The position numbers were made by a program, and so were the translations under genes. A stretch of 60,208 nucleotides of DNA from an uncultured Anaerolineae bacterium (GTDB lineage: Bacteria > Chloroflexota > Anaerolineae > Fen-1058). Shown here piece after piece: positions 27,575 through 58,340 of this stretch (the first letter of the stretch is position 1; every line of letters begins with the position of its first letter). The notes under the pieces were generated by a model that saw nothing but the letters and a program-made list of their open reading frames with translations, was not told where the DNA came from and searched no databases. The stretch lies in contig CAZYXV010000012.1 in the NCBI GenBank assembly GCA_964651475.1, positions 64,001 through 124,208 of the forward strand, read 5' to 3'.

Positions 27575-30258
27575 GGATTACCAGACCACGTAATGACCCG
27601 GCTCTTGGATTGAATGTCGTTCAGCAAGTTGAGCGCCTGGAGCGGCGTCATGTTGGCAATGTCTATAGCCATCAGTTGATGGAACAGGTCTCGCCACGTT
27701 TCGACGCGCGCGTCATAGAGCGCGCGTTCTTCTTTCATCAGCGCTCGTTCGCCGGACGGTATCATGGCCGCCGCGTCGCTTTGCTTTTCTTCTCTTTCCC
27801 GGTTGGCTTCCAGCCCTTGCAATACTTGCTCCGCCCGCCCAATCAGCCGGTCCGGCAAGCCTGCCAGCCGCGCCACGTGGATGCCAAAACTTTTTTCAGA
27901 GCTGCCCGGAATCACCTGCCGCAAAAAGGCAATCTCGTTCCCGCGCTCTCGCACGGCCATTGTGTAATTCTTGACGGCTTGCAGCGTGTTTTCCAGGCGC
28001 GTCAATTCGTCGTAATGCGTGGCGAACAGCGTCTTGGCGCCGACGACATTGCAAATCTCTTCCGCAATCGCCCACGCCAGCGAGATGCCATCGTAGGTTG
28101 ACGTGCCCCGCCCCGCTTCGTCGAGCACGATCAGGCTGCGCGGCGTGGCGTGCCGCAAGATGTAGCTGACCTCGCCCATCTCTACCAGAAACGTCGAGCG
28201 GCCCTGCGACACGTCGTCGCTCGCGCCAGCGCGCGTGAAAATCCGGTCGGTCAGGCCAATGCGGGCAAACGCCGCCGGGACGAAACTGCCCATCTGCGCC
28301 ATCAGTGTGATGAGCGCGACCTGGCGGATGAATACGCTCTTGCCCGACATGTTGGGGCCGGTGAGGATGATGACGCGCTGCGCGTCCTGGTTGAGCCGCG
28401 CGTCGTTCGGAACAAAGCGTTCGCCTTCGCGCAGAAAGCGTTCGACGACGGGGTGCCGCCCTTCGCGGATTTCGATTACGTCGCCGTCGTCTACGATGGG
28501 CATGGTGTAGTTGTAGCGCGCGGCGGCTTGGGCCAATGCTCCCAACGCGTCTATCTGTGCCAGAATCCGCGCCGCCGTTTGCAATAACGTCGAGTGTTCG
28601 GCCAGCGCGCCGCGCACCTGAACAAAAAGTTCGTATTCCAAATCTTTGATGCGGTCCTGAGTGGCGAGGATGCGCGCTTCTTGCGCTTCCAGCTCGGGGG
28701 TCACGTAGCGTTCGGCGTGCGTGATGGTGGCGCGGCGTTCGTAATCTGGCGGCACCCGGTGCGCGGCGCTGCGCGGCACCTCGATGAAAAAGCCAAACAC
28801 CTCGTTGTAGCACACGCGCAGCTTGTTGATCCCGGTGCGTTCGCGTTCCTTTTCTTCCAACTCGTTCAGCCAGTGCTTGTCGCGCGCGGCGGCGCTGCGC
28901 AACTCGTCGAGAGATGCATCATAGCCCGGCTTGATGATGCCGCCTTCGCGGATAAAAATTGGCGGCTCGTCTACGATGGCGCGCTCGATCAACCCCGCCA
29001 GGCGCGAGGCGCCCGGCTCATCCAGGCTCTGTTCCAATTCGCGCAGATGGGTGGAGGAGGTTTGGGCAAGTTGGGTTTTGATGTGCGGCAGGCGCATCAA
29101 CGCGCGTTTGAGCGCGATGAGGTCGCGCGCATTGGCGTTCCCGAATCCGATGCGTCCCACCAGGCGCTCGACATCGTACAAACCGTCGAGCAGTTGGCGC
29201 AGGTCTCCCCTCACAAAGGCGTTGTGGACCAGTTCGTCCACGGCGCCAAGCCGCGCTTGGATCTGGGCCATGTCCAGGAGCGGTTGGTGAATCCAGCGTT
29301 TGAGCAGCCGCGCGCCCATCGCCGTCACGGTGTGATCCAGCACGCCAAACAGGTGGCGCGGCGAGCGTTCGTCCGAATAAAGCGGCGCGGTCAATTCCAG
29401 GTTGCGGCGCGTCGCGGCGTCCAGCGTCATATAGTCGGAAAGCGAAAAAGTCCAAAGCTGGCTCACGTGCAGCAGCGGCGAAATGCTCTGGTTGCTTTTG
29501 AGGTAATACAACGCCGCGCCCGCCGCCGCTGTGGCCAGGGGCAGGCGCTCGCACCCGCAAGCATCCAGCGTTGCCGCGTGAAAATGCTCCAGCAGCGCGC
29601 GCCGCGCCGTCTCAACGTCGCCGGCGCTATCCTCGATGGGCGATAGCCTGGCGGGGCGGATGGCTTGCAGGCGCGCGGCAAACGCCTCGTCGTTCAAAAG
29701 CGCCCGCGGCAGCACGTACTCGCTCACCGGTGCGCGCTCCAGTTCGTCCAGCAGCCCGGCTTCCGCGCCGTCGCCCTCGATTTGCGTTGTGGCAAACTCG
29801 CCCGTCGAAAGCTCTATTAGCGCGAGGCCATAACTTGCTTTGGAGGGGGAGGGGGCGGCGCGGACAATCGCCGCTAAATAGTTTTCGCTCTTGGCGTGCA
29901 GCAGCGCGTCTTCTACGACGGTGCCCGGCGTGATGATGCGAACCACGTCACGCTTGACCAGGCGTTTGACTTTTTTGGCGTCTTCGAGCTGCTCGACGAG
30001 CGCTACCTTGTAGCCCTTGTCAATCAACTTGCCGATGTATGCTTGCACCTGGTGGTGCGGGACGCCCGCCATGGGCAGGCGCACATCTTTGGAAAAGGCG
30101 CGCGCCGTCAAAGCCAGATCAAGCTCGCGCGCCGCGGTTTTGGCGTCGTCCTCGAACGTCTCGTAAAAGTCGCCCAAGCGGAACAGGACAATCGCGTCTG
30201 GGAAACGCGCCTTGATTTGCCGGTACTGCGCGAGCATGGGAGTGGTGCTTTTTGCCAT
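27571..30258 (-). CDS. mutS: DNA mismatch repair protein MutS
   Basis: 895 aa. TPMLAQYRQIKARFPDAIVLFRLGDFYETFEDDA N-terminus, Walker A GPNMSGKS and the ABC-like ATPase C-domain. 4-nt overlap with mutL. Confidence 0.95.
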   Translation of the reverse strand: MAKSTTPMLAQYRQIKARFPDAIVLFRLGDFYETFEDDAKTAARELDLALTARAFSKDVRLPMAGVPHHQVQAYIGKLIDKGYKVALVEQLEDAKKVKRLVKRDVVRIITPGTVVEDALLHAKSENYLAAIVRAAPSPSKASYGLALIELSTGEFATTQIEGDGAEAGLLDELERAPVSEYVLPRALLNDEAFAARLQAIRPARLSPIEDSAGDVETARRALLEHFHAATLDACGCERLPLATAAAGAALYYLKSNQSISPLLHVSQLWTFSLSDYMTLDAATRRNLELTAPLYSDERSPRHLFGVLDHTVTAMGARLLKRWIHQPLLDMAQIQARLGAVDELVHNAFVRGDLRQLLDGLYDVERLVGRIGFGNANARDLIALKRALMRLPHIKTQLAQTSSTHLRELEQSLDEPGASRLAGLIERAIVDEPPIFIREGGIIKPGYDASLDELRSAAARDKHWLNELEEKERERTGINKLRVCYNEVFGFFIEVPRSAAHRVPPDYERRATITHAERYVTPELEAQEARILATQDRIKDLEYELFVQVRGALAEHSTLLQTAARILAQIDALGALAQAAARYNYTMPIVDDGDVIEIREGRHPVVERFLREGERFVPNDARLNQDAQRVIILTGPNMSGKSVFIRQVALITLMAQMGSFVPAAFARIGLTDRIFTRAGASDDVSQGRSTFLVEMGEVSYILRHATPRSLIVLDEAGRGTSTYDGISLAWAIAEEICNVVGAKTLFATHYDELTRLENTLQAVKNYTMAVRERGNEIAFLRQVIPGSSEKSFGIHVARLAGLPDRLIGRAEQVLQGLEANREREEKQSDAAAMIPSGERALMKEERALYDARVETWRDLFHQLMAIDIANMTPLQALNLLNDIQSKSRVITWSGNP

Positions 30259-30353
30259 GGGTCCAGTCTATTTGCTGCATTGATTTCACTATTATTCTAC
30301 CACAACTCAATCATTTTATCCGTTTGCATAGATAAATTAGAACGAATTTTCTA

Positions 30354-30473: not shown

Positions 30474-31283
30474 GTGATGCGGGAACTGGCTATCTTGCTC
30501 ATCATCGTAACCATTATAGCCGCTTTTGTGTCCGGCCTGGCGTCGGCGGGTTTCTCGTTCGGCAACCTGATTGTAGACGATAGCGGCCTGGCGTGGCGCG
30601 ATCCACAAAGCGAGGCGCGCGCTGCGGCGATTGCGCAAGAATCGGCAGATATGGCCGCTCAACGCGCGGTGGAGCGCCGGGCATTAGAGTTGCAGAATGA
30701 CGTGGAGCAGCGCGCGCAACCGGCGGCGGTATTGGGCAAGGCGCTCACGTACACTGGCCTGGGCCTGGGCGCGCTCATTTTGGCCGTGGGCCTGGCGTTT
30801 GCGGGCGTGGCGTGGGCGAACAAGCACGCCACCTCAATTTATCCCAATGCGGCAGGGCAATATCCCGTCATCGTCCGGCGCGGATTTGGGTGGGTGACGT
30901 TCCACGATCCCAATCGTGGACTGGGGCCCGCGGCGGTATATCGGACGCCCACTATGCTTGATGTGCTCGCCAGCGCGGTGGCTACGGTCAGGGGATTGGC
31001 TGCGCCCCGGCCTCAGGTGCAGGCCAGCTTTCCGGCGCCGGCCGATCAAGAGGCGATGTTGCAAGTGGCCAGCCAGGCGCAAGCGGTGGGGTTGATGGCG
31101 GCGGCGACGCGGCCCTCCGGTATTCTGAATAGCGCCGCGCCCCACCCCAAAGAGGCGCGGCAATTGGTAAAAGAGATGGTTCAGGGAACGGGGCCGGCTT
31201 TGAGCGGGCGCATGCCGGCCATCCGGGTGATTGACGATCAGGCGCAGGCAGACAAGTTGCTGATGTTGTTTGAGGGAGAGTGA
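30474..31283 (+). CDS. Hypothetical membrane protein (2 predicted TM helices)
   Basis: 269 aa. N-terminal TM ILLIIVTIIAAFVSGLASAGF and a second TM LGLGALILAVGLAFAGVAWA. No recognised domain. Confidence 0.5.
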   Translation: MMRELAILLIIVTIIAAFVSGLASAGFSFGNLIVDDSGLAWRDPQSEARAAAIAQESADMAAQRAVERRALELQNDVEQRAQPAAVLGKALTYTGLGLGALILAVGLAFAGVAWANKHATSIYPNAAGQYPVIVRRGFGWVTFHDPNRGLGPAAVYRTPTMLDVLASAVATVRGLAAPRPQVQASFPAPADQEAMLQVASQAQAVGLMAAATRPSGILNSAAPHPKEARQLVKEMVQGTGPALSGRMPAIRVIDDQAQADKLLMLFEGE

Positions 31284-48665: not shown

Positions 48666-50165
48666 TTATAAAATGTTTAACTGGCGCAGTGTTTCCAAAA
48701 GCACTCGATCCGAAAAAGCGTCTTTGGGAATGAAATCAATGGCGCCCAGGTCGAGGCCCTGCGCCAAGACGGGCGGCTCTTGATGAGCCGTCATAAACAC
48801 GATGGGGACGTTGGCGGTTTTGGGCATGTCTTTTAATGCCGTGCACGCTTCCAGCCCGTTCATTTCGGGCATCTCGATGTCGAGGATGATCACGTCCGGC
48901 ACAAATTGTTCCGCCATGAACACACCCACCCGCCCGTTGGGCGCGCAGAGCACCACGACGCCTTCGCGTTCCAGCAACGCCTTGATGGCCAGGGCTTGAA
49001 CCGTGCTGTCTTCGATGACCAGGGCGGTTTTGCGGGCGCCTTCCGGCGCGCGCGCCATGGTGGGCCTGCCGTCTCCAAGCCTGGGAAGGTCTATGTAAAA
49101 CACGCTTCCGCCTTCGGGATTATCCTCTATCCACACCCGGCCACTGTGCAACTCCACAATGCGTTTGACGATTGCCAGTCCCAGGCCGCTGCCTTCCACG
49201 CCGCTCTTGTCGGCGCGTTCAAAGCGGTCGAACACCCGCGTCTTGTTCGCGTCGGCGATGCCGCTTCCCCAATCTTTGACATAGAGCCGATGGTGTTCTC
49301 CAGCCTCGAGAATGCCTACTTCGATCCGGCTCCCTTCAGGTGAATATTTGATAGCGTTGCTCAAAAGGTTGGAAAAGACGGCTTCGATCATAGGATTGAC
49401 CATCGCGTAATATTTGCCTTGCGGCAGATAGACCAGGTACATGGCCTTTTTCTCCAGCAAGGGCCTGAGGGTTTCGGCGGCGGCTCTAAACATCTCGTTT
49501 AAATCGCGCCGGGCGCGCTCCAGTTCGCTCACGTTTCCCAGCCTGGCGTACAGGCTGGCATTTTCGACCATCTCGATGAGCTTGTCTGCGCCGTTTTTTA
49601 TGCGGAGCGCCATGCTCTTTTGAGTGTTGTCGCTCAGGTCGGTTAGCAGCAGCCTGGCAAAATCTCGGATCACGTTGATGGGATTGAGCAAGTCGTGGCG
49701 CATAATGTCTGCAAAGAGCTGCGTCAGGCGGTTGGCGTCTTCCAGTTCCTGGTTGACGCGCTGTAGTTCTGTGATGGTATGCACCAATGTATCTTCTGCC
49801 TGCTGCTTGTAAAGAGCTATTTCGATGGCGACGTGCAGCTCTCGCTCGTCGAACGGTTTAAAGAGATACCCAAAGGGTTGGGTTACTTTGGCGCGCTGCA
49901 AGGTGTTCTCATCGGCATAGGCCGTCAGGTAGATGATGGGGACGTTAAAGTCGTTGCGAAGCTGGCTGGCCGTTTCCACGCCGTCCATCTGGCTTTGCAG
50001 CCGGATGTCCAGCAGAGCCAGGTCGGGGCGCGCCTCGGCTGCCTTGTGGATGGCCTCCTCGCCCGAAAGCGCGGTAGTGGTCTTGTATCCCAGGCGCTGT
50101 AGCATCTCTTGGATATCTTGCACGACGATGCCTTCGTCTTCTACAATCAAGATATGTGCAGCCAT
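48666..50165 (-). CDS. Hybrid two-component protein: receiver, HisKA, HATPase_c, receiver
   Basis: N-terminal REC (HILIVEDEGIVVQDI...LLDIRLQSQMDG), H-box MRHDLLNPINVI, GSGLGLAIV, C-terminal REC (KTALVIEDSTVQ...ILDIEMPEMNG). Start taken at the ATG after an AAGGCGGA RBS; the listed ORF begins at an upstream TTG. Confidence 0.8.
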   Translation of the reverse strand: MAAHILIVEDEGIVVQDIQEMLQRLGYKTTTALSGEEAIHKAAEARPDLALLDIRLQSQMDGVETASQLRNDFNVPIIYLTAYADENTLQRAKVTQPFGYLFKPFDERELHVAIEIALYKQQAEDTLVHTITELQRVNQELEDANRLTQLFADIMRHDLLNPINVIRDFARLLLTDLSDNTQKSMALRIKNGADKLIEMVENASLYARLGNVSELERARRDLNEMFRAAAETLRPLLEKKAMYLVYLPQGKYYAMVNPMIEAVFSNLLSNAIKYSPEGSRIEVGILEAGEHHRLYVKDWGSGIADANKTRVFDRFERADKSGVEGSGLGLAIVKRIVELHSGRVWIEDNPEGGSVFYIDLPRLGDGRPTMARAPEGARKTALVIEDSTVQALAIKALLEREGVVVLCAPNGRVGVFMAEQFVPDVIILDIEMPEMNGLEACTALKDMPKTANVPIVFMTAHQEPPVLAQGLDLGAIDFIPKDAFSDRVLLETLRQLNIL

Positions 50166-50270
50166 AGTCGTTTCCGCCTTGCAACGCAAAGTTATCGCAT
50201 ACGAGTTAGTTGTATCATATTTCAGGCATTAAATCAACTTGTTATTTGTCATTTTATCACGACAAAAGTC

Positions 50271-50299
50271 TTGACAAGGCAAACAAGGTATGATATACT
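50271..50299 (+). promoter_or_regulatory. Near-consensus sigma70 promoter upstream of the XRE regulator / Wadjet operon
   Basis: TTGACA (50271-50276), 17-nt spacer, TATACT (50294-50299), in an AT-rich leader. ATG of the XRE gene at 50327. Confidence 0.55.
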
Positions 50300-50326
50300 G
50301 TGACAAGATTAGAACAAAAGTGCTAT

Positions 50327-50587
50327 ATGGGCAGAATCAGCACACGCGGCAGGCTTACAATATTGCTTGGGCAGCGCCAGGCGCTCACCGGTGAGCGGCT
50401 ATCGCTGCGCCGCCTGGCGGATCTGGCCGGCGTGCCCAAAGATTTGATCTATCGCCTGGATGCCGGCCAGGCGCGTTATGTTGACTTGGATGCGCTGGCG
50501 CGTTTGTGCCGCGCGCTGGAATGTAACCCGAGCGATATTCTGGTTTGGAGCAGCGATGGTCAATCCGCCGGCCCACAATCCGTTTGA
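50327..50587 (+). CDS. XRE-family (Cro/cI-type) helix-turn-helix transcriptional regulator
   Basis: 86 aa from the first ATG. HTH LSLRRLADLAGVPKDLIYRLDAG and the common C-terminal LCRALECNPSDILVW motif of small XRE proteins. Its 3' end overlaps the jetA start by about 30 nt. Confidence 0.7.
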   Translation: MGRISTRGRLTILLGQRQALTGERLSLRRLADLAGVPKDLIYRLDAGQARYVDLDALARLCRALECNPSDILVWSSDGQSAGPQSV

Positions 50588-51992
50588 TATTCTTCCAGCC
50601 AATTTATTCAACCCCTTCAGCACACAGGGCTATGGCAACCTGGCCCGCCACTATATGGCGATCCTTTTGCGCATCTATGCGTTGGCCGAGTTCAACCGCT
50701 TTGGCCTGACGCGCCAGGTCGTGATAGCAGACATTGTGGATTACCTGGCTGCCGAGGGCGCGGAAGAAGCGGTGGCCGCGGCAATGGGTGAGGGAACGGG
50801 CGAACCCGCCGCTTCGATTACGGTGCAATCCGCGCAAGATTACGCCGGGTATTTGCTGCGCCGCCTGGTCGAGACGGGTTGGATCGAGCGCGAGCAGCAC
50901 GCCGATTACACCGAATACATCGTCTTGCCCGATTACGCTTTTACGCTGTTGGAAGCCTTTCGCGCTATCCAGGAGCAAAAGCCGCGCGAGTATACGGGCC
51001 AATTGTATACCGTGCACCAATTGCTCACGCACGAAGACGAAAATTTCGCGCCCGCGCTGGCGCTTACACAAGCCTACGAGAACGTGCGCCAGGTCGTGCG
51101 CGGGTTGAACGAGTTGAATCACAACATTCGCCGCTATATTGAGCGCGCCACGCGCGGGCGCGACGTGGCCGAACTGCTGCGCTTGCAGTATGACGATTAC
51201 GCCTCGGCGCTTGGCCCGGCTTATCACGCGCTCAAAACCTCTGATCACGTGTCGCGCTATCGGCGCGATATTATCAACCAGCTTCAAACTTGGCAGGCCG
51301 ATAGCGAATGGCTCGACCGCGCCGCCGACGAATTGGCGACGCAGGCGCGCATCACGCCGGCCCAGGCCTCCGGCGAGATCAGCCACTATATCCGTTTCAT
51401 CACACAGCAATTGGAAAGCCTCGACCCGCTGCTGGACGAGATTGACCGCCGCCACGCGCAATATCTGCGCACCTCGCTGCGCCAGATTCGCTACCAGTTG
51501 ACAAGCGACGATGGCAGCTTTAAGGATCGGCTGGTTTCGTTGGCGCGGCGGCTGGCGGCGCTGCAAGAAGAAGGCTTGTCCGAGTTGCCGGAAGATGCGC
51601 CCGGTTTGCAGCATTGCCCCATTCGCCTGCCCGACGCCAATAGTTTTTACACCATGCCGCAGCGCCGCGCCCCGTTTGAAACGGGAGATATCCAATTGCC
51701 GACGCTTCACCCGCTGGACGTGGCCGCCTTGCGCGCGACCACTCTGCAAGAAGTGACCCAGAGCATTTCGCCGGACAAGATCAATCGCTTTGTGTGCCAG
51801 TTCCTCAACGGCAACCGGCGCATCCACGTGACCGCGCTGCCGCCCGACGCGCTGGGCAATGTGCCCTGGCTGCTCTATACGATTGCCTACAGTTTCCATC
51901 CCGAAGTGAACTATGGCATTCAAGTCACACCGGGCGAGCCGGTGCAGGTGGGGCCGTATCGGATGGAGCCGTTTGATTTGGTAAAGCTGTGA
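50556..51992 (+). CDS. jetA: Wadjet system protein JetA (MksB-like, DUF3375-type)
   Basis: Listed ORF 50460..51992 trimmed to the ATG (MVNPPAHNPFDIL...) preceded by GGAG. 479 aa and helical, in an operon with JetB, JetC and JetD homologues. Family assignment rests on size, synteny and remembered family features. Confidence 0.7.
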   Translation: MVNPPAHNPFDILPANLFNPFSTQGYGNLARHYMAILLRIYALAEFNRFGLTRQVVIADIVDYLAAEGAEEAVAAAMGEGTGEPAASITVQSAQDYAGYLLRRLVETGWIEREQHADYTEYIVLPDYAFTLLEAFRAIQEQKPREYTGQLYTVHQLLTHEDENFAPALALTQAYENVRQVVRGLNELNHNIRRYIERATRGRDVAELLRLQYDDYASALGPAYHALKTSDHVSRYRRDIINQLQTWQADSEWLDRAADELATQARITPAQASGEISHYIRFITQQLESLDPLLDEIDRRHAQYLRTSLRQIRYQLTSDDGSFKDRLVSLARRLAALQEEGLSELPEDAPGLQHCPIRLPDANSFYTMPQRRAPFETGDIQLPTLHPLDVAALRATTLQEVTQSISPDKINRFVCQFLNGNRRIHVTALPPDALGNVPWLLYTIAYSFHPEVNYGIQVTPGEPVQVGPYRMEPFDLVKL

Positions 51993-52678
51993 TATCGCGT
52001 ACTGCGCAAGACGTAATTACGCAGTACGACATACGGAGAGCGTCAATGCCCTTTGACTGTGAAACGATTTTAGAGTCCACCGCTCTGCCCGACAAATCCC
52101 GCCGCGACGTACCGCGCGTGGTGAACCGCTTGTTGGGCCAGACCTTTTTGCATCAAGATGTGGAGACCGACAAGGATGATTATTACTTTGTCCATCGCCA
52201 CCGCGATGCGTTTGAGACCTTGCTGGCGCTGGCCGGATTCAAATTATTGCACGACGATTATCACCGCATCTTTCAGGCCGTGTCCGAGTTTAGCTATTGC
52301 CGCGCGCATTATCGGCTGGACGAGACGCTGATGATCGTCGTCTTGCGCAAGCTGTACCAGGAGCGCGCCGAACAGCTCAACCTGGCGGCCGACCCGGCGG
52401 TGACGGTGGGCGAAGTGCGCGAAGAATATCGCACCATCACCGGCAAAGAGCGCGACCTGGGCATTATGCAATACGAAGCCATTCTGCGCCACCTGCGCGC
52501 GTTGGGGTTGGTAGACACATTGGATGGCCGCACGATTGACGTGCGCAACAGCGAAACTCGCTTGCGTCTGCGCGGGTCCGTGCGCATGATCCTGCCGGTG
52601 CAGTCGGCGGACGAGATGGAGGTGTGGTTGCGCAAGTATCGGGTGGCGGGAGTGAGCGCTGAACCGGAAGAGGAGTAA
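51989..52678 (+). CDS. jetB: Wadjet system protein JetB (MksE-like, DUF4194-type kleisin-like subunit)
   Basis: 229 aa. ATGA start/stop overlap with jetA. Acidic C-terminal tail. Size and position match JetB/MksE. Confidence 0.7.
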   Translation: MISRTAQDVITQYDIRRASMPFDCETILESTALPDKSRRDVPRVVNRLLGQTFLHQDVETDKDDYYFVHRHRDAFETLLALAGFKLLHDDYHRIFQAVSEFSYCRAHYRLDETLMIVVLRKLYQERAEQLNLAADPAVTVGEVREEYRTITGKERDLGIMQYEAILRHLRALGLVDTLDGRTIDVRNSETRLRLRGSVRMILPVQSADEMEVWLRKYRVAGVSAEPEEE

Positions 52679-52681
52679 CCC

Positions 52682-55600
52682 ATGAAACAACTCACTCGCA
52701 TCCGCCTCATCAACTGGCATTTGTTTGAAAACGCCGCCATCTCGTGCAACGGCACGACCTACTTTATCGGCGTCAACGGCGCGGGCAAGTCTACGATCCT
52801 GGACGCGATCCAGTTCGCGCTGGTGGGCGGGCAGCGCGAGGTCAAGTTTAACCAGGCGGCGCTGGCCGGCGGCAAGCGCACGCTCGCCAGTTACGTGCGC
52901 GGCGAACTGGGCACCGAAGGTCAGCGTTTTTTGCGCGACGACGCGACCGGCGTGGTGGCGCTTGAATTTCGCAATCCCGATAATTCGTACTTTGTGCACG
53001 GCGCGGTGATTGATGCTTATGCCGATGGCCGCGCGCCGGAGGTAATGTATTTTATCGTCAACAATGCCGCGCTCGACGATGGCTGGTTTTTTCGCGAGTC
53101 TCCCATTTCACCCTCTGCGGGGGCTTGCGGGACAGGCGGCAAGCTGTTTGACACGCGCGCCTTCAAGCGCCATCTAGAACATTTCGCTCTGCCCACGGGC
53201 GGGCGCGCCCAGGCCTTTGGCCGCCTGGAAGATTACCGCTTTCATTTGCTCAATCGCCTGGGCCAGCTCAAAGACACTTTTCCGGCCAAGATTGTCAAAG
53301 GGTTGGCCTTTAGCCCGCTCATCAATATCCGCGAATTTGTCCACAACTATTTGCTGGACGAAAACCTGGTGGACGTGAAAACATTGCAAGATCAACTGGA
53401 AACGCTGCGCCACTTTGAAGCGCTGGCGGCCAATGTGCGCGAGCGGATTGCGGCGCTGGACCACATTGAGGAATTGGATCAGGAACGTGTAGCGAATCGC
53501 CGCCGCCGCCTGACCAACGGCCACATTCAACGCCGCGCGCGGGGCGATACACATCTGGCCCAGCTCAAACGCTTTCGCCTGGAATTGGAAGAAGCGCGCG
53601 TCGAGTTGTCCCGCGCTGCGCTCAAGCGCGACATTTTGGACCAAGACCTCAAGCGCGCCCGCCAGGCCTTGCTCGACGCGCAGGTGGCGCTGCAAACCGA
53701 TGCGACCGCGCTGCGCGAAAAAGAATTGCGCGACAAGATTGCCTCTCTGGAAAATGAGGCGCGCGCGCTGGCCGAACGCGAGGCGCGCGTGACTGAAACA
53801 TTGGCCCGCGAGGTCCAAGATGCGCAGATATTGCGTCAATGCCTCGTCAAAGATCGCATGTCTATTCCGCCATCATTAGATGAATTCATTCAATCTGATC
53901 AAAGTGTGGATTGCATTGTCCGGCTGCAAGCCGACTTGGAAATTTTGGGGCACACGTTTGCCGAACAAAACGCATTGTTGGGTGAACAGTCGCGTCGATT
54001 GCGCGACGAGGCCGAGCAGTTGCAGCGCGAGATCGTACAACTGCGCACGGGTGACCGCGACGCCAGCTACGAGGCCGAAGCGCCCGAAGCCGCCCGCCTG
54101 CGTCGCCTGTTGCGCGCCGAGTTGGGGTTGGGCGCAGACGAGGCCGTGTTTCTATGCACCGTTTTGCAAATCCCTGATGAATCCTGGCAAGACGCGGTTG
54201 AGGGCGTATTGGGCAACACGCGCTTCAACTTGCTGGTGCCGCCTGAACATTACGACGCCGCGATGCGGCTTTACCGCGAGCGCCGCCACGCGGACAATTT
54301 GCACGGGGTCGGCCTGCCGGACATTGAGCGAATCTTGAGTCGAACGGGCCAGACAGGTGTTTCGCAAAACCTGTCAGGTCTGGCAAGTGAGGTTCAAACG
54401 CAGCACGCGGGCGCGCGCGCATTGGTAGATTTGCTGCTGGGCCACGCGGTCAAATGCGATACGTTGGACCAGTTGCGCGAGCATCGCACCGCCATAACGC
54501 GCGAGTGTTTTTTGCGCCGCAACTATACCACCAGCCACATGAATCCGCGCGTTTACCGCCGCTGGTTCATCGGCGACCGGGCCGTGCCGCGCCAGATCGA
54601 GCAGCGCGAAGCCCGGCTCGAAGAGATTCGCGCCGAATTGCTGGCGCTGCAAGATCAAGCCAGCGCACTGCGCGAACGCCTGGCGCTCACTCGGGACAAG
54701 ACGCGCCTGTACTTTGACCTGGAACGCGACCTGGACGAGTTGGCGAGCCTGCCCGTCAGAACGGCGCAACTGGCCGCGCTGCAAGACGAGCTATCGCGCC
54801 TGGATACGCAAACCATTGAGGCCCTGCGCGCGCAAGTTGACGCGCGCCGCGCGCAGGCTGACGGTTTGCAAGCCGAGCTTTCGGAATTGGACAAGCATAT
54901 CGGCGGAGTGGACATGCGCGCCAAGACGTTGAATGACGAAACCATTCCCACCGTGGAGCGCGAGGCCGATCAGGCCGCGCAAAGCGCGCTGGCCTTTTTG
55001 CGTTTTGAGCAGGCCGAGGATGCGCTGGACGAGGTCAACAAGGAATATGAACGCCGCCGGGAACGGCAGCCGCTCGAAACTGTGCTGCAAAACGCCACGC
55101 GCTACGAAAGCGAATATCAAAGCGCCGAAACGCGCAGCCGCGACCGCTTGCGCGAGGCCAAGCAAGCCTATAGCCTGAAATACGATTTCGGTTACGACGA
55201 GGACGAAGACGCCGCGCGTTACGTCCGCGAGCGCGACAAGTATATGCAGTCGGAACTGCCGCAGTACGAGGAGCGCATTACGGCGCAGCGCAAGTTGGCC
55301 GAGCAAGAACTGGTGGAAAATTTCATCCATCGCCTGCGCGAACAGATCGAAGACGCGCGCCAGCAATTGGGGCATCTCAATACCACGCTGGCAGGACTGC
55401 GCTTTGGCGGCGAGCGCTTTGAATTTATCACGCGCCCCGAACCCACGCTGCGCCCGGTGTACGATATGGTGATGGACAGCCAGGAGGTTTTGGGCAAATC
55501 ATTGTTCGAGTCCGATTTTCGCCAAAAGCACCAGCAGGGCTGGGATGTGTTGTTCGAGCATTTAACGGTGGGGCAGGCCGGTGATGCCGCCGTGGAACTG

Positions 55601-56032
55601 CGCCAATTGCAGGATTACCGCAACTATTTGCAGTACGACATTCGCATCCACTATCCCAATGGCGACCACGCGCTGCTCAGCCAGATCAACGCCAAAAAAT
55701 CCGGCGGCGAAACGACCACGCCGTTTTACGTGGCCATGGCGGCCTCGTTCGCGCAAGCCTATCGCCTCAACCAGCCGCGCGCCTCGGACACCATCCGGCT
55801 GGCGTTGTTCGACGAAGCATTCAGCAAAATGGATACGGCCCGCACCGCCAGCGCGCTCAAGTTTATGGTCGAGACGCAATTGCAAGTGCTGCTGGCGACG
55901 CCGCCCGACAAGGCGACGGGACTCTTGCCTTACGTGGATTGTGTGCGGACGGTGGTGCGCAAGGATAATCACTCGTTCGTCATCGAAATGGACAAGGCTG
56001 AGCTGGTGGGCGAGTTGGAACGTACTGCGTAA
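52682..56032 (+). CDS. jetC: Wadjet system protein JetC (MksF/MukB-like SMC-family ATPase)
   Basis: 1116 aa. N-terminal Walker A FIGVNGAGKSTILDAIQFAL, very long Arg/Glu/Leu/Ala/Gln-rich coiled-coil arms, C-terminal ABC signature KSGGETTTPFYVAMAASFAQ and Walker B RLALFDEAFSKMD. Confidence 0.85.
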   Translation: MKQLTRIRLINWHLFENAAISCNGTTYFIGVNGAGKSTILDAIQFALVGGQREVKFNQAALAGGKRTLASYVRGELGTEGQRFLRDDATGVVALEFRNPDNSYFVHGAVIDAYADGRAPEVMYFIVNNAALDDGWFFRESPISPSAGACGTGGKLFDTRAFKRHLEHFALPTGGRAQAFGRLEDYRFHLLNRLGQLKDTFPAKIVKGLAFSPLINIREFVHNYLLDENLVDVKTLQDQLETLRHFEALAANVRERIAALDHIEELDQERVANRRRRLTNGHIQRRARGDTHLAQLKRFRLELEEARVELSRAALKRDILDQDLKRARQALLDAQVALQTDATALREKELRDKIASLENEARALAEREARVTETLAREVQDAQILRQCLVKDRMSIPPSLDEFIQSDQSVDCIVRLQADLEILGHTFAEQNALLGEQSRRLRDEAEQLQREIVQLRTGDRDASYEAEAPEAARLRRLLRAELGLGADEAVFLCTVLQIPDESWQDAVEGVLGNTRFNLLVPPEHYDAAMRLYRERRHADNLHGVGLPDIERILSRTGQTGVSQNLSGLASEVQTQHAGARALVDLLLGHAVKCDTLDQLREHRTAITRECFLRRNYTTSHMNPRVYRRWFIGDRAVPRQIEQREARLEEIRAELLALQDQASALRERLALTRDKTRLYFDLERDLDELASLPVRTAQLAALQDELSRLDTQTIEALRAQVDARRAQADGLQAELSELDKHIGGVDMRAKTLNDETIPTVEREADQAAQSALAFLRFEQAEDALDEVNKEYERRRERQPLETVLQNATRYESEYQSAETRSRDRLREAKQAYSLKYDFGYDEDEDAARYVRERDKYMQSELPQYEERITAQRKLAEQELVENFIHRLREQIEDARQQLGHLNTTLAGLRFGGERFEFITRPEPTLRPVYDMVMDSQEVLGKSLFESDFRQKHQQGWDVLFEHLTVGQAGDAAVELRQLQDYRNYLQYDIRIHYPNGDHALLSQINAKKSGGETTTPFYVAMAASFAQAYRLNQPRASDTIRLALFDEAFSKMDTARTASALKFMVETQLQVLLATPPDKATGLLPYVDCVRTVVRKDNHSFVIEMDKAELVGELERTA

Positions 56033-56057
56033 TGCGTATTGCGTAAGGGCGTGCGTT

Positions 56058-57398
56058 ATGTCATCTCCAGCTTTTGTTCCCTCCCCTGATGTGAGCGCCA
56101 TCCTCCACGCGCTGCTGGATATTTGCGAGCGGCGCAATTTGCCTTCATTCCTTCGGCTTCGCTCCCTGGCCTGCCGTCCAGGGCAGGCAGGCCAGGCCTC
56201 GTCCCTTCCAGGTGTGGGAGAGGGAAAAGTAATGTACCGAACGATTCGCTGTGACGTGCAGGCCATGACGTTGCCTGGCTATCACAGCCAGGTTGATCCC
56301 AATCCGCGCCAGGTCGCCAACGAGCAGTTGACGGCGTTGGAACAGCAAGGCTATGTGCGTTTGATTTGGCTGCCGGGCCAGGAAAACCACTTGCTTGCTT
56401 CCATTTTGCTCGCGCCTGAATGCGCTGACGAACTATTCGCCTGGCTGAACCGCACACCCCTTGCCGCGCAACGAGCCTCTCTGCGCGACGTGCTGCTCGG
56501 CGAACGCTTTCGTTTTAAAGATTGGCGCTTGCGCGCAGTGGAGCACACGCTGGCCCAATTGCGCGAAGGCAAATCGCCCGCGCCATTCAGCCTGACCGAT
56601 CAAGATTTCAACCGCGACGTGTTGACGGCGCTGCGCGCATTGAGCGAGGTGCGCGAAGAAACGCCTTATCGGGTTTTTAGCGTGCGCGTGTTCAATGACA
56701 GCAAGCGCTTCGAGTTGCTCAAAGGCGCGCTGGTCACATTGGCGCGGCGCCATCAAGCCGAGTGGACCGACCTGTCCGATGGCGAGTTGTTGCGCGAAGT
56801 GGGCCTGGTGGCAAATCCGAACCACCTGTATTTGTACGGCCCCTGGCGCTTGGTGGATGAGAGCGGTCAGGTTCTTTCGCTGGGCGAATTTTATCCGTCG
56901 GTTGGTGTGCCGGCGGCGCAGGCTGCGCGCGTACAGCATGTGGATGTTGCCGCTGCTTCCCGCGTGGTGTGCGTGGAAAATCAGACGACGTTTTACGAAT
57001 TGGTGCGCCGCGAAAGCGAGGGATTGGCGGCGCTGTGCTTGTGGGGCAATCCGTCCCCGGCTTGCCGGCACTTGTTGCGCTGCCTGATCCAGACTTGCCC
57101 GGAGCATGTACCCTTGTTGGTGTGGGCCGACCTGGATTACGGCGGGCTAAACATCCTGGCGCAACTGCGCAAAATCAGCCCGCGCTTCCAGCCATACCGC
57201 ATGGACATTCCCACGCTCGACGCACACGCGTTGTGGGGCAAGCCGCTCACCCGCGCCGACGAGAAAAATCTGACGCGCCTGGCGCAGCATCCGTTGCTGG
57301 CCGATATGCGCCCGGTTATCGAGCACATGCTGGCAAGGGGAATCAAGTTGGAACAGGAAGGGATTCCGGCGGCGGGCCAGGTTCCGCTAGCGAGATAA
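56058..57398 (+). CDS. jetD: Wadjet system protein JetD (MksG-like; DUF2220/Toprim topoisomerase-VI-like nuclease)
   Basis: 446 aa from the ATG 26 nt after the jetC stop; an alternative ATG lies at about 56232. C-terminal Toprim-like motifs VCVENQTTFYEL (E) and LLVWADLDYGGLNIL (DxD). Confidence 0.8.
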   Translation: MSSPAFVPSPDVSAILHALLDICERRNLPSFLRLRSLACRPGQAGQASSLPGVGEGKVMYRTIRCDVQAMTLPGYHSQVDPNPRQVANEQLTALEQQGYVRLIWLPGQENHLLASILLAPECADELFAWLNRTPLAAQRASLRDVLLGERFRFKDWRLRAVEHTLAQLREGKSPAPFSLTDQDFNRDVLTALRALSEVREETPYRVFSVRVFNDSKRFELLKGALVTLARRHQAEWTDLSDGELLREVGLVANPNHLYLYGPWRLVDESGQVLSLGEFYPSVGVPAAQAARVQHVDVAAASRVVCVENQTTFYELVRRESEGLAALCLWGNPSPACRHLLRCLIQTCPEHVPLLVWADLDYGGLNILAQLRKISPRFQPYRMDIPTLDAHALWGKPLTRADEKNLTRLAQHPLLADMRPVIEHMLARGIKLEQEGIPAAGQVPLAR

Positions 57399-57572
57399 CG
57401 GTTCCCCGGGCCTGACCCGGCCGGGGCCAGCCAACAGGGCCGCTATGGACTGACAGACTCAGTAGATCCATTTTGGGGTTTGTAGTAACAGCTTTAGCCG
57501 GCGAAAGAATCGCTAAAGCGGTTACTGCGAACGAGATTCTGCATCTGCTGAGACTTTAGAAAGGAGAAACCA

Positions 57573-58076
57573 ATGTCAGACTCGATCCTGATTGCTTATG
57601 CGACACGTTATGGTTCCACGCAAGAGGTCGCCGAAAAGGTCGCGGCGACGCTGCGGGAAGGCGGCCTGTCGGTGGATGTGCAACCCGTCAAACAAGTGCG
57701 GACGTTGGACGGCTACCGCGCGGTGGTGGTGGGCGCGCCGTTGTATATGTTCGATTGGCTCAAAGAGGCGCGCGACTTTATATCACGGCACCGCGCGGCC
57801 CTGGCGACGCGGCCCGTGGCGGTTTTCGCCCTCGGCCCGACCGAGGACAAGCAGGAAGACTGGACGGAAACACGGAAGCAACTCGACAAGGTGCTGTCCA
57901 AATTCCCCTGGTTGTCTCCGGTCGCCGTGGAGTTGTTTGGCGGCAAGTTCGACCCGACCCGGTTGACCTTTCCCTACAACCTGGTTCCGGGCCTTAAACG
58001 GATGCCCGTAAACGACATCCGCGATTGGGACGCCATTCGCGCCTGGGCCAACAGTTTGCCCGAAAAGCTCGCCTGA
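57573..58076 (+). CDS. Flavodoxin-like domain protein
   Basis: 167 aa. ILIAYATRYGSTQEVAEKVAATL flavodoxin N-terminal signature, AVVVGAPLYMFDW. AAAGGAGAAACC RBS. Confidence 0.65.
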   Translation: MSDSILIAYATRYGSTQEVAEKVAATLREGGLSVDVQPVKQVRTLDGYRAVVVGAPLYMFDWLKEARDFISRHRAALATRPVAVFALGPTEDKQEDWTETRKQLDKVLSKFPWLSPVAVELFGGKFDPTRLTFPYNLVPGLKRMPVNDIRDWDAIRAWANSLPEKLA

Positions 58077-58340
58077 GACATGTTGGCGCGCCGCTCCGGC
58101 ATTTCGAGCCGCCGCTTGCCGGCGACCTCGATTTGGCCGCGCCCTGCGTGCCCACCGGCGTGACGCCCATCAGCACGTACCCGCTCACATTCACCCGCAC
58201 CCCATGGTGAGTGTAAGCCGCGTTGAGGAGGGTAGCCGGCGCGTCGCTGGCCGTGAAGCACATCCCCAGCACCGTCCCGCCCCCTGAGTTGTTGAACCCC
58301 GCCAGGCATATCGGCAACATCACCAACGCGCCCCGCAAAA

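What the first reader, a model, noticed from the sequence alone, without database searches (positions are those of the whole stretch)
50271..57398. Complete Wadjet (JetABCD) SMC-like anti-plasmid defence operon fused to an upstream XRE-family regulator with a consensus promoter
Four co-directional, translationally coupled genes. jetA (479 aa) starts inside the XRE gene's 3' end. jetB (229 aa) has an ATGA overlap with jetA. jetC is 1116 aa and jetD 446 aa.

Seen in sequence:
- JetC has an SMC/MukB-like head (Walker A GVNGAGKST; signature SGGE; Walker B LALFDEAF) separated by about 900 aa of coiled coil.
- JetD has a Toprim-like E...DxD core (CVEN / WADLDYGG).
- An 86-aa XRE HTH gene sits directly upstream, driven by TTGACA-17-TATACT, and its stop lies about 30 nt inside jetA.

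Established knowledge: JetABCD/MksBEFG (Wadjet, Doron et al. 2018) restricts plasmids by DNA loop extrusion followed by JetD cleavage.

Inference: this locus is a Wadjet system, and the XRE protein may repress it until invasion. A dedicated regulator is not a standard Wadjet component, so the regulatory coupling is the interesting part. The system sits next to two hybrid histidine kinases and an Rhs toxin module, consistent with a defence/competition island.
Basis: partly seen in the sequence, partly recalled or inferred. Interest (0 to 1): 0.8.

Follow-up and report, generated by a model that had tools for sequence, protein, structure and literature searches.

The report
Wadjet anti-plasmid operon with built-in regulator
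This is a complete type I Wadjet (JetABCD) plasmid-restriction operon. In a whole clade of Chloroflexota it always carries a small XRE-type DNA-binding gene as a fifth, overlapping first gene behind a strongly conserved promoter and operator, which gives a concrete, testable model for how Wadjet expression is controlled.

Summary
The locus is real: a complete type I Wadjet system (PADLOC JetA1 9e-92, JetB1 7e-36, JetC1 6e-267, JetD1 6e-81).

An 86-aa XRE (HTH_26) gene precedes it, and its stop codon lies 32 nt inside jetA. A TTGACA-17-TATACT promoter (11/12 match) drives the unit.

- jetA is 478 aa.
- The jetA/jetB overlap reads GTGA, not ATGA. Relatives favour a jetB start at ATG 52046 (210 aa).
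- JetD is indeed 446 aa; public gene calls truncate it to 388 aa.
- The "defence island" context is not supported.

New result: the XRE gene is a fixed component of a Wadjet clade.
- 79 of 80 genome loci found by XRE similarity have jetA directly downstream. Almost all are Anaerolineae or Thermoflexales.
- 4 of 4 intact loci found by JetA similarity have the XRE gene upstream.
- Flanking genes differ from locus to locus.

A 16-bp palindrome, TAGAAC-N4-GTTCTA, sits over the predicted transcription start in nearly all loci. In one subclade it encloses the ATG, which implies a leaderless mRNA.

Most likely mechanism: the XRE protein represses its own operon at this palindrome, much like a restriction-modification controller protein.

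Main rival: the palindrome core equals the Gram-positive/Chloroflexi LexA box, so SOS control is not excluded.

Verdict: new variant of a known kind; moderate interest.

The parts
50246..50267 (+). Conserved upstream promoter element TTGTC-N10-GACAAA (A/T-rich centre), ending 3 nt before the -35. It could be an UP-like element or a second operator.
   Evidence: Consensus tTGTC..(10)..cG.CAAa at a fixed distance from the -35 in 76 aligned promoters. The two arms are not complementary in all subclades (GCCAAA variants).
50271..50299 (+). Sigma-70-type promoter: TTGACA, 17 nt, TATACT, with TG two bases before the -10.
   Evidence: 11/12 match. TTGACA-17-TAnnnT is present in 72 of 80 distinct relatives' upstream regions.
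50310..50325 (+). Operator palindrome Pal-1, TAGAAC-AAAA-GTGCTA (consensus TAGAAC-N4-GTTCTA). It lies between the -10 and the XRE ATG, over the predicted transcription start region.
   Evidence: 74 of 80 distinct upstream regions match at least 10/12 and 62 match at least 11/12. The left half GAAC is invariant in 78 of 79, the other differing only at C. At up to 1 core mismatch it is present near the XRE start in 83 of 94 loci, with only 6 hits elsewhere in 1.1 Mb.
50327..50587 (+). XRE/Cro-type HTH gene (86 aa), with no Shine-Dalgarno sequence and a predicted short or absent leader.
   Evidence: Pfam HTH_26 6e-12. 688 homologue clusters; the 120 best listed are 66-100% identical. AF2 model pLDDT 85. 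Best folds are R-M controller proteins C.BclI/C.AhdI, E about 6e-4.
50547..50550 (+). jetA Shine-Dalgarno sequence (GGAG), embedded in the XRE codons around W74.
   Evidence: Read directly from the sequence. GGGAG/GGAG lies at the same place in most relatives.
50556..51992 (+). jetA (478 aa), kleisin-like subunit. Its first 32 nt overlap the XRE 3' end.
   Evidence: Pfam JetA 5.1e-87. PADLOC JetA1 9.1e-92. The XRE stop lies inside jetA in 78 of 81 distinct loci.
52046..52678 (+). jetB (210 aa; alternative GTG start at 51989 gives 229 aa), MukE-like subunit.
   Evidence: Pfam DUF4194 1e-19. PADLOC JetB1 6.9e-36. GGAGA Shine-Dalgarno before ATG 52046. Relatives are called at 205-217 aa.
52682..56032 (+). 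jetC (1116 aa), SMC/MukB-like ATPase.
   Evidence: PADLOC JetC1 5.7e-267 over residues 1-1108. Pfam AAA_29 and SbcC_Walker_B. SMC_prok_B matches residues 244-909. ATPase motifs are invariant.
56058..57398 (+). jetD (446 aa), Toprim nuclease subunit.
   Evidence: PADLOC JetD1 6e-81. Pfam JetD_C 6.5e-18. AF2 model pLDDT 81.5 matches Spo11, Topo VI-A, C. glutamicum MksG and P. aeruginosa JetD at E 3e-7 to 1e-4. E307, D358 and D360 are invariant.
56151..56198 (+). In-frame 16-codon insertion in the variable, predicted-disordered JetD linker. It carries a perfect 11-bp hairpin at 56165-56196.
   Evidence: Absent from the 91-92%-identical relative (L005/L006) and from all others. Hairpin found and unique in the window. 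Model pLDDT is 45-49 here.

Best explanation
The region is a single five-gene operon, xre-jetA-jetB-jetC-jetD, from a Chloroflexota genome (Thermoflexales/Anaerolineae-like).

**What JetABCD does.** It is a complete type I Wadjet system. From established knowledge of the family, the JetABC SMC complex loads on DNA and extrudes loops. It recognises small circular DNA, and the JetD Toprim nuclease then cleaves it, which restricts plasmids.

**The promoter (shown).** The operon is driven by one very strong, near-consensus promoter with a conserved upstream element.

**The first gene (shown).** It encodes an 86-aa Cro/C1-type HTH protein. It has no Shine-Dalgarno sequence, so its mRNA is probably short-leadered here and truly leaderless in a subclade. 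Its 3' end contains both the jetA ribosome-binding site and the jetA start codon.

**The proposed mechanism (inferred).** A dimer of the XRE protein binds the 16-bp palindrome TAGAAC-N4-GTTCTA. The half-site centres are 10 bp apart. The site lies between the -10 and the ATG, over the transcription start, so binding blocks RNA polymerase. This gives negative autoregulation: the strong promoter fires whenever the repressor is scarce, for example after transfer of the cassette to a new cell or after dilution. Expression is then clamped to a low, constant Wadjet level.

**Closest logic.** This resembles the controller (C) proteins of restriction-modification systems, which are also the closest structural matches to the XRE model.

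**Shown versus inferred.** Shown: gene identities, operon anatomy, and clade-wide conservation of the xre-jetA overlap, the promoter and the palindrome. Inferred: that XRE is the protein that binds the palindrome, and that the effect is repression.
For: **Identity of the four Jet proteins**
- Pfam and PADLOC hits.
- The JetD model has a JetD/MksG/Topo VI-A fold.
- ATPase and Toprim motifs are invariant among relatives.

**XRE is part of the system**
- All six XRE homologues looked up (66-93% identical) show the gene overlapping jetA, each with different flanks.
- 79 of 80 genome loci found with the XRE alignment have jetA directly downstream. The exception stops at a contig end.
- 4 of 4 intact loci chosen by JetA similarity alone have the HTH_26 gene upstream.
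- The XRE stop lies inside jetA in 78 of 81 distinct loci. The TGA is built from the codons of JetA's conserved NPFD motif, and the jetA Shine-Dalgarno is built from the XRE W74 codon region.

**Regulatory DNA**
- TTGACA-17-TAnnnT is present in 72 of 80 upstream regions.
- The palindrome matches at least 10/12 in 74 of 80 regions. It always lies between the -10 and the ATG, starting directly after the -10 in 32 loci and enclosing the ATG in 19.
- It is near-absent elsewhere in 1.1 Mb of flanking DNA.

**Protein**
- Five-helix Cro-like model with pLDDT 85.
- Best PDB matches are C.BclI and C.AhdI, then ClgR, Stl, the CapH N-terminal domain, HipB, 434 Cro and SinR.
- The HTH residues VPKD-x-x-YRLD-x-G are invariant, matching an invariant operator core.

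**No sensor**
- There is no sensor domain, and no CapP- or WYL-type partner gene next to the operon.
Against: - No binding data exist. Assigning the palindrome to XRE rests on position and co-inheritance only.
- The palindrome core GAAC-N4-GTTC, including an R-N-R-Y spacer bias, equals the LexA box of Firmicutes and Actinobacteria. Variants of that box are reported for Chloroflexi (PMC4951493). A host factor could therefore be the binder.
- I found no covariation between the XRE recognition-helix residues and operator variants.
- In this window the right half-site is imperfect (GTGCTA), as in its closest relatives.
- A second conserved element (TTGTC-N10-GACAAA plus GACAA repeats) could be the true XRE site.
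- The transcription start is predicted, not mapped.
Confidence: 0.6

Rival explanations
1. SOS control. The palindrome is a LexA box and host LexA represses the Wadjet operon. DNA damage, or incoming single-stranded DNA during conjugation or transformation, would induce it. The XRE protein would act at the other conserved element (TTGTC-N10-GACAAA and the GACAA repeats) or have another role.
For: - The core GAAC-N4-GTTC with an R-N-R-Y spacer bias is the LexA motif of Firmicutes and Actinobacteria. Variations of it are reported in Chloroflexi (PMC4951493).
- From my own recollection, Fernandez de Henestrosa et al. 2002 showed that Dehalococcoides LexA binds GAACN4GTTC.
- Some loci carry tandem boxes (TAGAACAAAAGTTCGGAACAGGTGTTCG), as lexA promoters often do.
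- A second conserved upstream element exists that XRE could use.
Against: - The flanking bases are T-A...T-A, not the C...G of the Cheo box.
- The site is fixed in position and inherited with the cassette across all flanks.
- The only recA found in the held Anaerolineae DNA has no such box. This is weak evidence, because Dehalococcoides recA reportedly lacks one too.
- No other good copies occur in 1.1 Mb of flanking DNA.
- The one extra site in the window, next to mutS, is not conserved in 80 relatives.
- No lexA or uvrA promoter was available to test.
Confidence: 0.2
2. Controller-protein switch. XRE both activates and represses, as R-M C proteins do. Binding the upstream TTGTC/GACAA element would activate at low concentration, and binding the start-site palindrome would repress at high concentration. 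This would delay and then cap Wadjet expression after horizontal transfer.
For: - The closest structural matches are C.BclI and C.AhdI.
- The gene lies directly upstream of, and overlaps, the first effector gene.
- The mRNA is predicted to be leaderless or near-leaderless. Leaderless C-gene transcripts are known from my own recollection of the literature.
- There are two conserved cis elements, one upstream of the -35 and one at the start site.
- C-protein logic is summarised in PMC12255303.
Against: - The promoter is already near-consensus (11/12, with a conserved upstream element), so it should not need an activator.
- The two elements have different sequences (TTGTC/GACAA versus TAGAAC/GTTCTA). 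One homodimer is unlikely to read both.
- The upstream element's half-site centres are 15 bp apart, and its arms are not complementary in all subclades.
- There is no C-box (GACT...AGTC).
Confidence: 0.12
3. Damage- or infection-triggered derepression by a protease acting in trans, like CapH/CapP or DdrO/IrrE. XRE would be cleaved by an unlinked metalloprotease on stress, inducing Wadjet.
For: Weak PADLOC capH hit (3.6e-6). The CapH N-terminal domain is among the fold matches (E 2.9e-3).
Against: - No protease gene lies next to the operon in the window or in any of the relatives inspected.
- The protein is only 86 aa, with a variable C-terminal tail that is largely dictated by the overlapping jetA frame.
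Confidence: 0.05

Closest known systems
Type I Wadjet / JetABCD (= MksBEFG, EptABCD), e.g. E. coli GF4-3, P. aeruginosa PA14 and C. glutamicum MksBEFG
   Same: Same four protein families in the same order. All best PADLOC models are JetA1/B1/C1/D1. SMC ATPase motifs are present. The JetD fold and catalytic E...DxD are Toprim-like and similar to Topo VI-A.
   Different: - It carries a fifth, conserved, overlapping XRE gene and a conserved promoter/operator.
- Its sequences are too far from the solved Wadjet proteins for sequence searches of the PDB to find them.
- JetD has a conserved extra N-terminal helix followed by a variable linker.
Restriction-modification controller (C) proteins (C.AhdI, C.BclI, C.Esp1396I)
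   Same: Small Cro-like HTH. The gene lies directly upstream of, and overlaps, a nuclease-system gene. The operator lies at its own promoter. The mRNA is probably leaderless. They are the best structural matches.
   Different: No significant sequence similarity (E about 0.3). The operator sequence is different, with no C-box. The promoter is strong and consensus-like rather than activator-dependent. The downstream system is an SMC complex, not a restriction enzyme.
WYL-domain repressors BrxR/CapW next to defence systems, including Wadjet
   Same: A dedicated transcription factor encoded next to a defence operon. This is the only regulator type I found reported next to Wadjet (PMC11662680).
   Different: There is no WYL or WCX sensor domain. 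The fold is XRE rather than winged HTH. Here the gene is inside the operon and overlaps jetA, and it is fixed in a whole clade rather than sporadic.
CapH/CapP (CBASS) and DdrO/IrrE XRE-protease pairs
   Same: An XRE-type HTH repressor of a defence or stress operon. There is a weak profile hit to capH.
   Different: No adjacent protease gene and no C-terminal oligomerisation or cleavage domain.
LexA (SOS) boxes of Gram-positive bacteria and Chloroflexi, GAAC-N4-GTTC
   Same: The palindrome core and the spacer bias are the same.
   Different: The flanking bases differ (TA...TA). The site is tied to a cassette that encodes its own HTH protein. No link to other SOS genes could be shown.

Membership tests
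Wadjet type I (JetABCD) | JetA (DUF5716, kleisin-like) present | tested here: met
   Pfam PF18982 5.1e-87 over residues 41-475. PADLOC JetA1 9.1e-92.
Wadjet type I (JetABCD) | JetB (DUF4194, MukE-like) present | tested here: met
   Pfam PF13835 1e-19. PADLOC JetB1 6.9e-36.
Wadjet type I (JetABCD) | JetC: an SMC/MukB-like ATPase whose head halves are separated by a long coiled coil and hinge | tested here: met
   PADLOC JetC1 5.7e-267, aligned over residues 1-1108 to model positions 1-1090 of 1097. AAA_29 at the N-terminus and SbcC_Walker_B at the C-terminus. SMC_prok_B matches residues 244-909. Walker A, signature and Walker B motifs are invariant. The coiled coil and hinge were not modelled in 3D.
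Wadjet type I (JetABCD) | JetD: Toprim nuclease with catalytic E...DxD | tested here: met
   Pfam JetD_C 6.5e-18. PADLOC JetD1 6e-81. The model matches Spo11, Topo VI-A, MksG (8b7f) and JetD (7til). E307, D358 and D360 are invariant in 41 sequences.
Wadjet type I (JetABCD) | Genes in one co-directional cluster, jetA-B-C-D | tested here: met
   Gaps are 53, 3 and 25 nt, with no convincing terminator between genes.
Wadjet type I (JetABCD) | Restricts small circular DNA by loop extrusion and cleavage | not testable with these tools
   Function is inferred from family membership only.
R-M controller (C) proteins | Small Cro/C1-type HTH fold | tested here: met
   Foldseek top hits are C.BclI (6.2e-4) and C.AhdI (7.5e-4). 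Sequence similarity is not significant (E 0.26-0.31).
R-M controller (C) proteins | C-box operator (GACT-N3-AGTC type) upstream of its own gene | tested here: not met
   The conserved palindrome is TAGAAC-N4-GTTCTA. The C-box consensus is from my own knowledge.
R-M controller (C) proteins | Controls a restriction endonuclease gene of an R-M system | tested here: not met
   The downstream genes are jetABCD.
CapH/CapP regulator pair | Adjacent CapP-type metallopeptidase gene | tested here: not met
   No such gene flanks the operon in the window or in the inspected relatives.
WYL (BrxR/CapW) regulators | WYL ligand-sensing domain | tested here: not met
   The protein is 86 aa with HTH_26 only.
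LexA (SOS) regulon member | GAAC-N4-GTTC box at the promoter | tested here: inconclusive
   The core is present in most relatives (62 of 80 at 11/12 or better). In the window it has one core mismatch (GTGC). Sequence alone cannot tell a LexA site from an XRE site.
LexA (SOS) regulon member | Same box upstream of lexA, uvrA or other SOS genes of the same lineage, and bound by LexA | not tested
   No lexA or uvrA gene lies in the 1.1 Mb of Anaerolineae DNA held. The single recA found has no box.

The most novel reading that the evidence does not exclude
The start-site palindrome is a genuine LexA/SOS box as well as, or instead of, the XRE operator. This Wadjet clade would then be wired to the DNA-damage response. 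Single-stranded DNA entering by conjugation or transformation would induce the anti-plasmid machinery, and the XRE protein would add a second, cassette-borne layer of control. That would be the first direct link between SOS signalling and Wadjet.
Probability: 0.2. Interest if true: 0.7.

Novelty: new variant of a known kind. Interest (0 to 1): 0.5.

Why it matters
How Wadjet is regulated is largely unknown. The literature I could search assumes constitutive expression or notes occasional WYL regulators (PMC11662680).

This locus shows a whole lineage of type I Wadjet systems in which a minimal XRE protein is built into the operon. Its stop codon, the jetA ribosome-binding site and the jetA start are interlocked. 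The promoter and a 16-bp operator are conserved across more than 100 species.

That gives a small, well-defined regulatory module of about 350 bp that can be tested directly in a heterologous host. It also suggests that an SMC-based defence system is dosed in the same way as restriction enzymes.

Practical point: annotation pipelines miss the fifth gene's role and truncate JetD in this clade.

Tried and rejected
1. **Sequence searches of the PDB.** JetC and JetD, as single sequences and as small profiles, found no Wadjet structures. For JetD this was resolved by structure prediction and fold search. JetC was not modelled.
2. **Looking for lexA, uvrA and recA in all held Anaerolineae DNA to test the LexA rival.** Only one recA turned up, and it has no box. 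The test is inconclusive.
3. **The second palindrome in the window (30338-30353, next to mutS).** I fetched 80 mutS relatives from metagenomes and found no conserved site upstream. I rejected it as evidence for a wider regulon.
4. **Covariation between XRE recognition-helix residues and operator variants.** None was found; both are nearly invariant.
5. **A Verrucomicrobia-labelled copy (P0160/L095) as a test of operator portability.** Its flanks resemble those of the Thermoflexales locus L005 (a BTAD/TPR gene), so it is probably a mis-binned contig and not informative.
6. **The defence-island idea.** PADLOC on eight neighbouring ORFs gave only receiver and ATPase domain-level hits.
7. **Rfam scan of 50000-58300.** Nothing significant.
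8. **NCBIfam.** No specific models for XRE, JetA or JetB.
10. **The 388-aa JetD start used by public gene calls.** Rejected, because the N-terminal helix upstream of it is conserved in all relatives.

Full report
**1. What is in the sequence**

Between 50271 and 57398 the + strand carries a promoter-like site and five co-directional genes.

- The promoter is TTGACA (50271-76), 17 nt, then TATACT (50294-99) with TG two bases upstream. It matches the consensus at 11 of 12 positions. It is the only site of that quality in 49900-57700; the other three hits match 9/12, about what shuffled sequence gives.
- The first gene runs from ATG 50327 to a stop ending at 50587 (86 aa). The alternative GTG at 50300 lies directly after the -10, and relatives do not support it.
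- jetA starts at ATG 50556, preceded by GGAG (50547-50550), and ends at 51992 (478 aa). The XRE stop therefore lies 32 nt inside jetA.
- The jetA stop overlaps a GTG (the sequence reads GTGA, not ATGA). However, ATG 52046 has a GGAGA Shine-Dalgarno sequence. It gives the 210-aa JetB that gene callers and relatives agree on.
- jetC is 52682-56032 (1116 aa), 3 nt after the jetB stop and preceded by GAGGAG.
- jetD starts at ATG 56058, 25 nt after the jetC stop, and ends at 57398 (446 aa).

**2. Identity of the proteins**

| Protein | Pfam | PADLOC |
|---|---|---|
| JetA | PF18982, 5.1e-87 | JetA1, 9.1e-92 |
| JetB | DUF4194, 1e-19 | JetB1, 6.9e-36 |
| JetC | AAA_29 (N-terminus) and SbcC_Walker_B (C-terminus) | JetC1, 5.7e-267, residues 1-1108 of 1116 |
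| JetD | JetD_C, 6.5e-18 | JetD1, 6e-81 |

This is a type I Wadjet system.

- In JetC the Walker A (GVNGAGKST), signature (SGGE) and Walker B (LALFDEAF) motifs are invariant among relatives. The middle of JetC matches the prokaryotic SMC model over residues 244-909.
- In JetD, E307 (CVEN) and D358/D360 (WADLDYGG) are invariant in 41 homologues.
- Sequence searches of the PDB did not reach the solved Wadjet proteins.
- An AlphaFold model of JetD (pLDDT 81.5) matches Spo11, Topo VI-A, the C. glutamicum MksG nuclease and P. aeruginosa JetD at E 3e-7 to 1e-4.

The public gene call for JetD (388 aa, from ATG 56232) is too short.

- The segment upstream of it encodes a helix with the motif FxPSPDVxxILxALLDxYERR. 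This motif is conserved in every relative examined and is modelled with pLDDT 87-96.
- After the helix comes a variable, low-confidence linker. In this genome the linker has gained a 16-codon in-frame insertion that carries a perfect 11-bp hairpin.

**3. The XRE gene is part of the system**

The protein is a Cro/C1-type HTH (HTH_26, 6e-12).

- A protein search found 688 homologue clusters. The 120 best listed are 66-100% identical, and those with names come from Anaerolineae or Thermoflexales.
- All six homologues looked up sit directly upstream of, and overlap, a jetA gene followed by jetB, jetC and jetD. The surrounding genes differ each time.
- A scan of one genome per species with the XRE alignment found 133 genomes. 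Of the best 80 loci, 79 have jetA immediately downstream. The one exception ends 17 nt after the XRE match.
- Nearly all of these genomes are labelled Chloroflexota (Anaerolineae, Anaerolineales, Thermoflexales). The few labelled otherwise are MAG bins.
- In the reverse direction, five loci were chosen by JetA similarity alone. Four are intact, and all four have the HTH_26 gene overlapping jetA. The fifth is a decayed remnant that has lost its 5' end.
- Two distant type I Wadjet operons on Bacillota plasmids lack this gene.
- Identity to the window proteins tracks across all five genes: XRE 62-93%, JetA 56-94%, JetB 67-91%, JetC 57-94%, JetD 45-92%. This fits inheritance as one unit.

The junction itself is conserved.

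- The XRE stop lies inside jetA in 78 of 81 distinct loci, most often by 17 nt.
- The TGA stop is formed by the TTT-GAy codons of JetA's conserved NPFD motif.
- The jetA Shine-Dalgarno sequence (GGGAG or GGAG) is formed by the XRE codons around the invariant W74.

**4. Regulatory DNA**

I aligned 80 distinct upstream regions. They share this layout: tTGTC, about 10 A/T-rich bases, cG(A/C)CAAa, 3-4 nt, TTGACA, 17 nt, TAnAAT, then the palindrome TAGAAC-N4-GTTCTA, then ATG.

- The -35 and -10 hexamers at 16-17 nt spacing are recognisable in 72 of 80 regions.
- The palindrome matches at least 10 of 12 specified bases in 74 of 80 regions and at least 11 in 62. The left half GAAC is invariant in 78 of 79, the other differing only at C.
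- In 32 loci the palindrome begins directly after the -10. In 19 of these the ATG lies inside the 4-nt spacer (TAAAAT-TAGAAC-ATGn-GTTCTA). Transcription should then start at the A of the ATG, which implies a leaderless mRNA.
- In the window the palindrome is TAGAAC-AAAA-GTGCTA (50310-50325). It lies 10 nt after the -10 and 1 nt before the ATG. No Shine-Dalgarno sequence precedes the XRE gene.
- With up to one mismatch in the 10-base core, the palindrome lies next to the XRE start in 83 of 94 loci. It occurs only six times elsewhere in 1.1 Mb of flanking DNA.

**5. Most likely mechanism**

A very strong promoter, an operator centred on the start site, and a minimal HTH protein encoded as the first cistron make up the classic arrangement of a negative autoregulator.

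- The half-site centres are 10 bp apart, which suits a Cro-like dimer.
- The XRE model (pLDDT 85) is closest to the R-M controller proteins C.BclI and C.AhdI. Next come ClgR, Stl, the CapH N-terminal domain, HipB, 434 Cro and SinR.
- Controller proteins are likewise encoded directly upstream of the gene they dose (PMC12255303).
- I therefore propose that XRE clamps xre-jetABCD transcription to a low steady level and allows a burst whenever the repressor is absent.
- The protein has no sensor domain. No protease or WYL partner lies nearby. So I see no support for 'repression until invasion'.

**6. Main rival**

The palindrome core, including its R-N-R-Y spacer bias, equals the LexA box of Firmicutes and Actinobacteria. 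Variants of that box are reported for Chloroflexi (PMC4951493). I could not exclude LexA control.

- No lexA or uvrA gene lies in the DNA I hold.
- The only recA has no box. From my own recollection, Dehalococcoides recA also lacks one, so this says little.
- A second palindrome in the window, next to mutS (30338-30353), is not conserved in 80 relatives.
- No covariation separates the candidate binders.
- Against LexA: the flanking bases are TA...TA, and the site is fixed in position and travels with a cassette that encodes its own HTH protein.

My estimates are XRE autorepression 0.6, LexA 0.2, a C-protein-like dual switch 0.12, and a protease acting in trans 0.05.

**7. Context**

The neighbours are two hybrid histidine kinases and housekeeping genes upstream, and a flavodoxin gene followed by an Rhs-type C-terminal fragment downstream.

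- PADLOC finds no other defence system in eight neighbouring ORFs.
- Relatives have unrelated flanks.
- The 'defence island' reading is therefore not supported.
- The nearest named genome is a Thermoflexales MAG, at about 93% XRE and 94% JetA and JetC identity.

**8. Novelty and verdict**

Wadjet itself is well known. The library searches turned up only WYL regulators described next to Wadjet, and no paper describing an XRE gene as part of the system. An XRE gene that is clade-fixed, embedded in the operon, and paired with a conserved leaderless-type promoter and operator is a new variant of a known kind. It is useful because it gives a compact, testable module for Wadjet regulation. It is not a new type of system. 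Interest 0.5.

Noticed in passing
window 30338-30353: A second copy of the operator-like palindrome (TAGAACGAATTTTCTA, 1 mismatch). It lies in the intergenic region between mutS (27571-30258, minus strand) and an unknown 269-aa ORF (30474-31283, no Pfam hit). It directly abuts a TTGACT-17-TATCAT promoter-like site. It is not conserved upstream of mutS in 80 metagenomic relatives.
   Followed up: yes
window 56151-56198 (hairpin 56165-56196): An in-frame 16-codon insertion (FLRLRSLACRPGQAGQ) in the disordered JetD linker. It carries a perfect 11-bp inverted repeat, CCTGGCCTGCC-N10-GGCAGGCCAGG. It is absent from the 91-92%-identical relative (L005/L006) and is unique in the window. Its origin is unknown.
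   Followed up: partly
window 56058-56231; loci L001-L004: Public gene calls start JetD at ATG 56232 (388 aa). This cuts off a conserved N-terminal helix (FxPSPDVxxILxALLDxYERR), so JetD is systematically mis-annotated in this genome.
   Followed up: yes
window 57479-57532: A long, stable stem-loop (about 20 bp; the 181-nt region folds with z = -3.5) between jetD and the flavodoxin gene. A G+C-rich hairpin also lies directly after the jetD stop (57400-57430). There is no U-tract and no Rfam match. Possibly a terminator or a leader structure.
   Followed up: partly
L025 4905-6909; L062 6837-7618; also L060, L072, L076, L080, L089 (0.9-2.1 kb gaps between jetB and jetC): In several relatives, extra genes are inserted between jetB and jetC. 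In L025 these look like a DNA methyltransferase-like ORF (359 aa) plus a 313-aa ORF. In L062 there are two small ORFs (121 and 137 aa), the second with a retropepsin-like DTGAD motif. These readings come from the ORF translations by eye; no family search was run on them. The jetB-jetC junction may be an insertion hot spot for other small modules.
   Followed up: partly
L097 10001-12749 (GCA_041300525.1, 5.2-Mb contig): A decayed copy of the cassette: jetA is 5'-truncated (415 aa) with no XRE gene, jetB is intact, jetC is cut to 280 aa, and jetD is missing. The same 5.2-Mb contig also holds an apparently full-length JetD homologue (P0253).
   Followed up: no
L095 versus L096 (after jetC, about 15500): Two near-identical contigs differ downstream of jetC. 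L096 continues with a + strand ORF directly after the jetC stop that runs into the contig end (presumably jetD; no Pfam record). L095 instead has a CopG-antitoxin gene and unrelated genes there, suggesting loss of jetD in one population.
   Followed up: no
window 51997-52027 and 56021-56029: A 9-bp inverted repeat, CGTACTGCG...CGCAGTACG, lies in the jetA-jetB spacer. The same CGTACTGCG nonamer recurs at the very end of jetC. Its significance is unknown.
   Followed up: no
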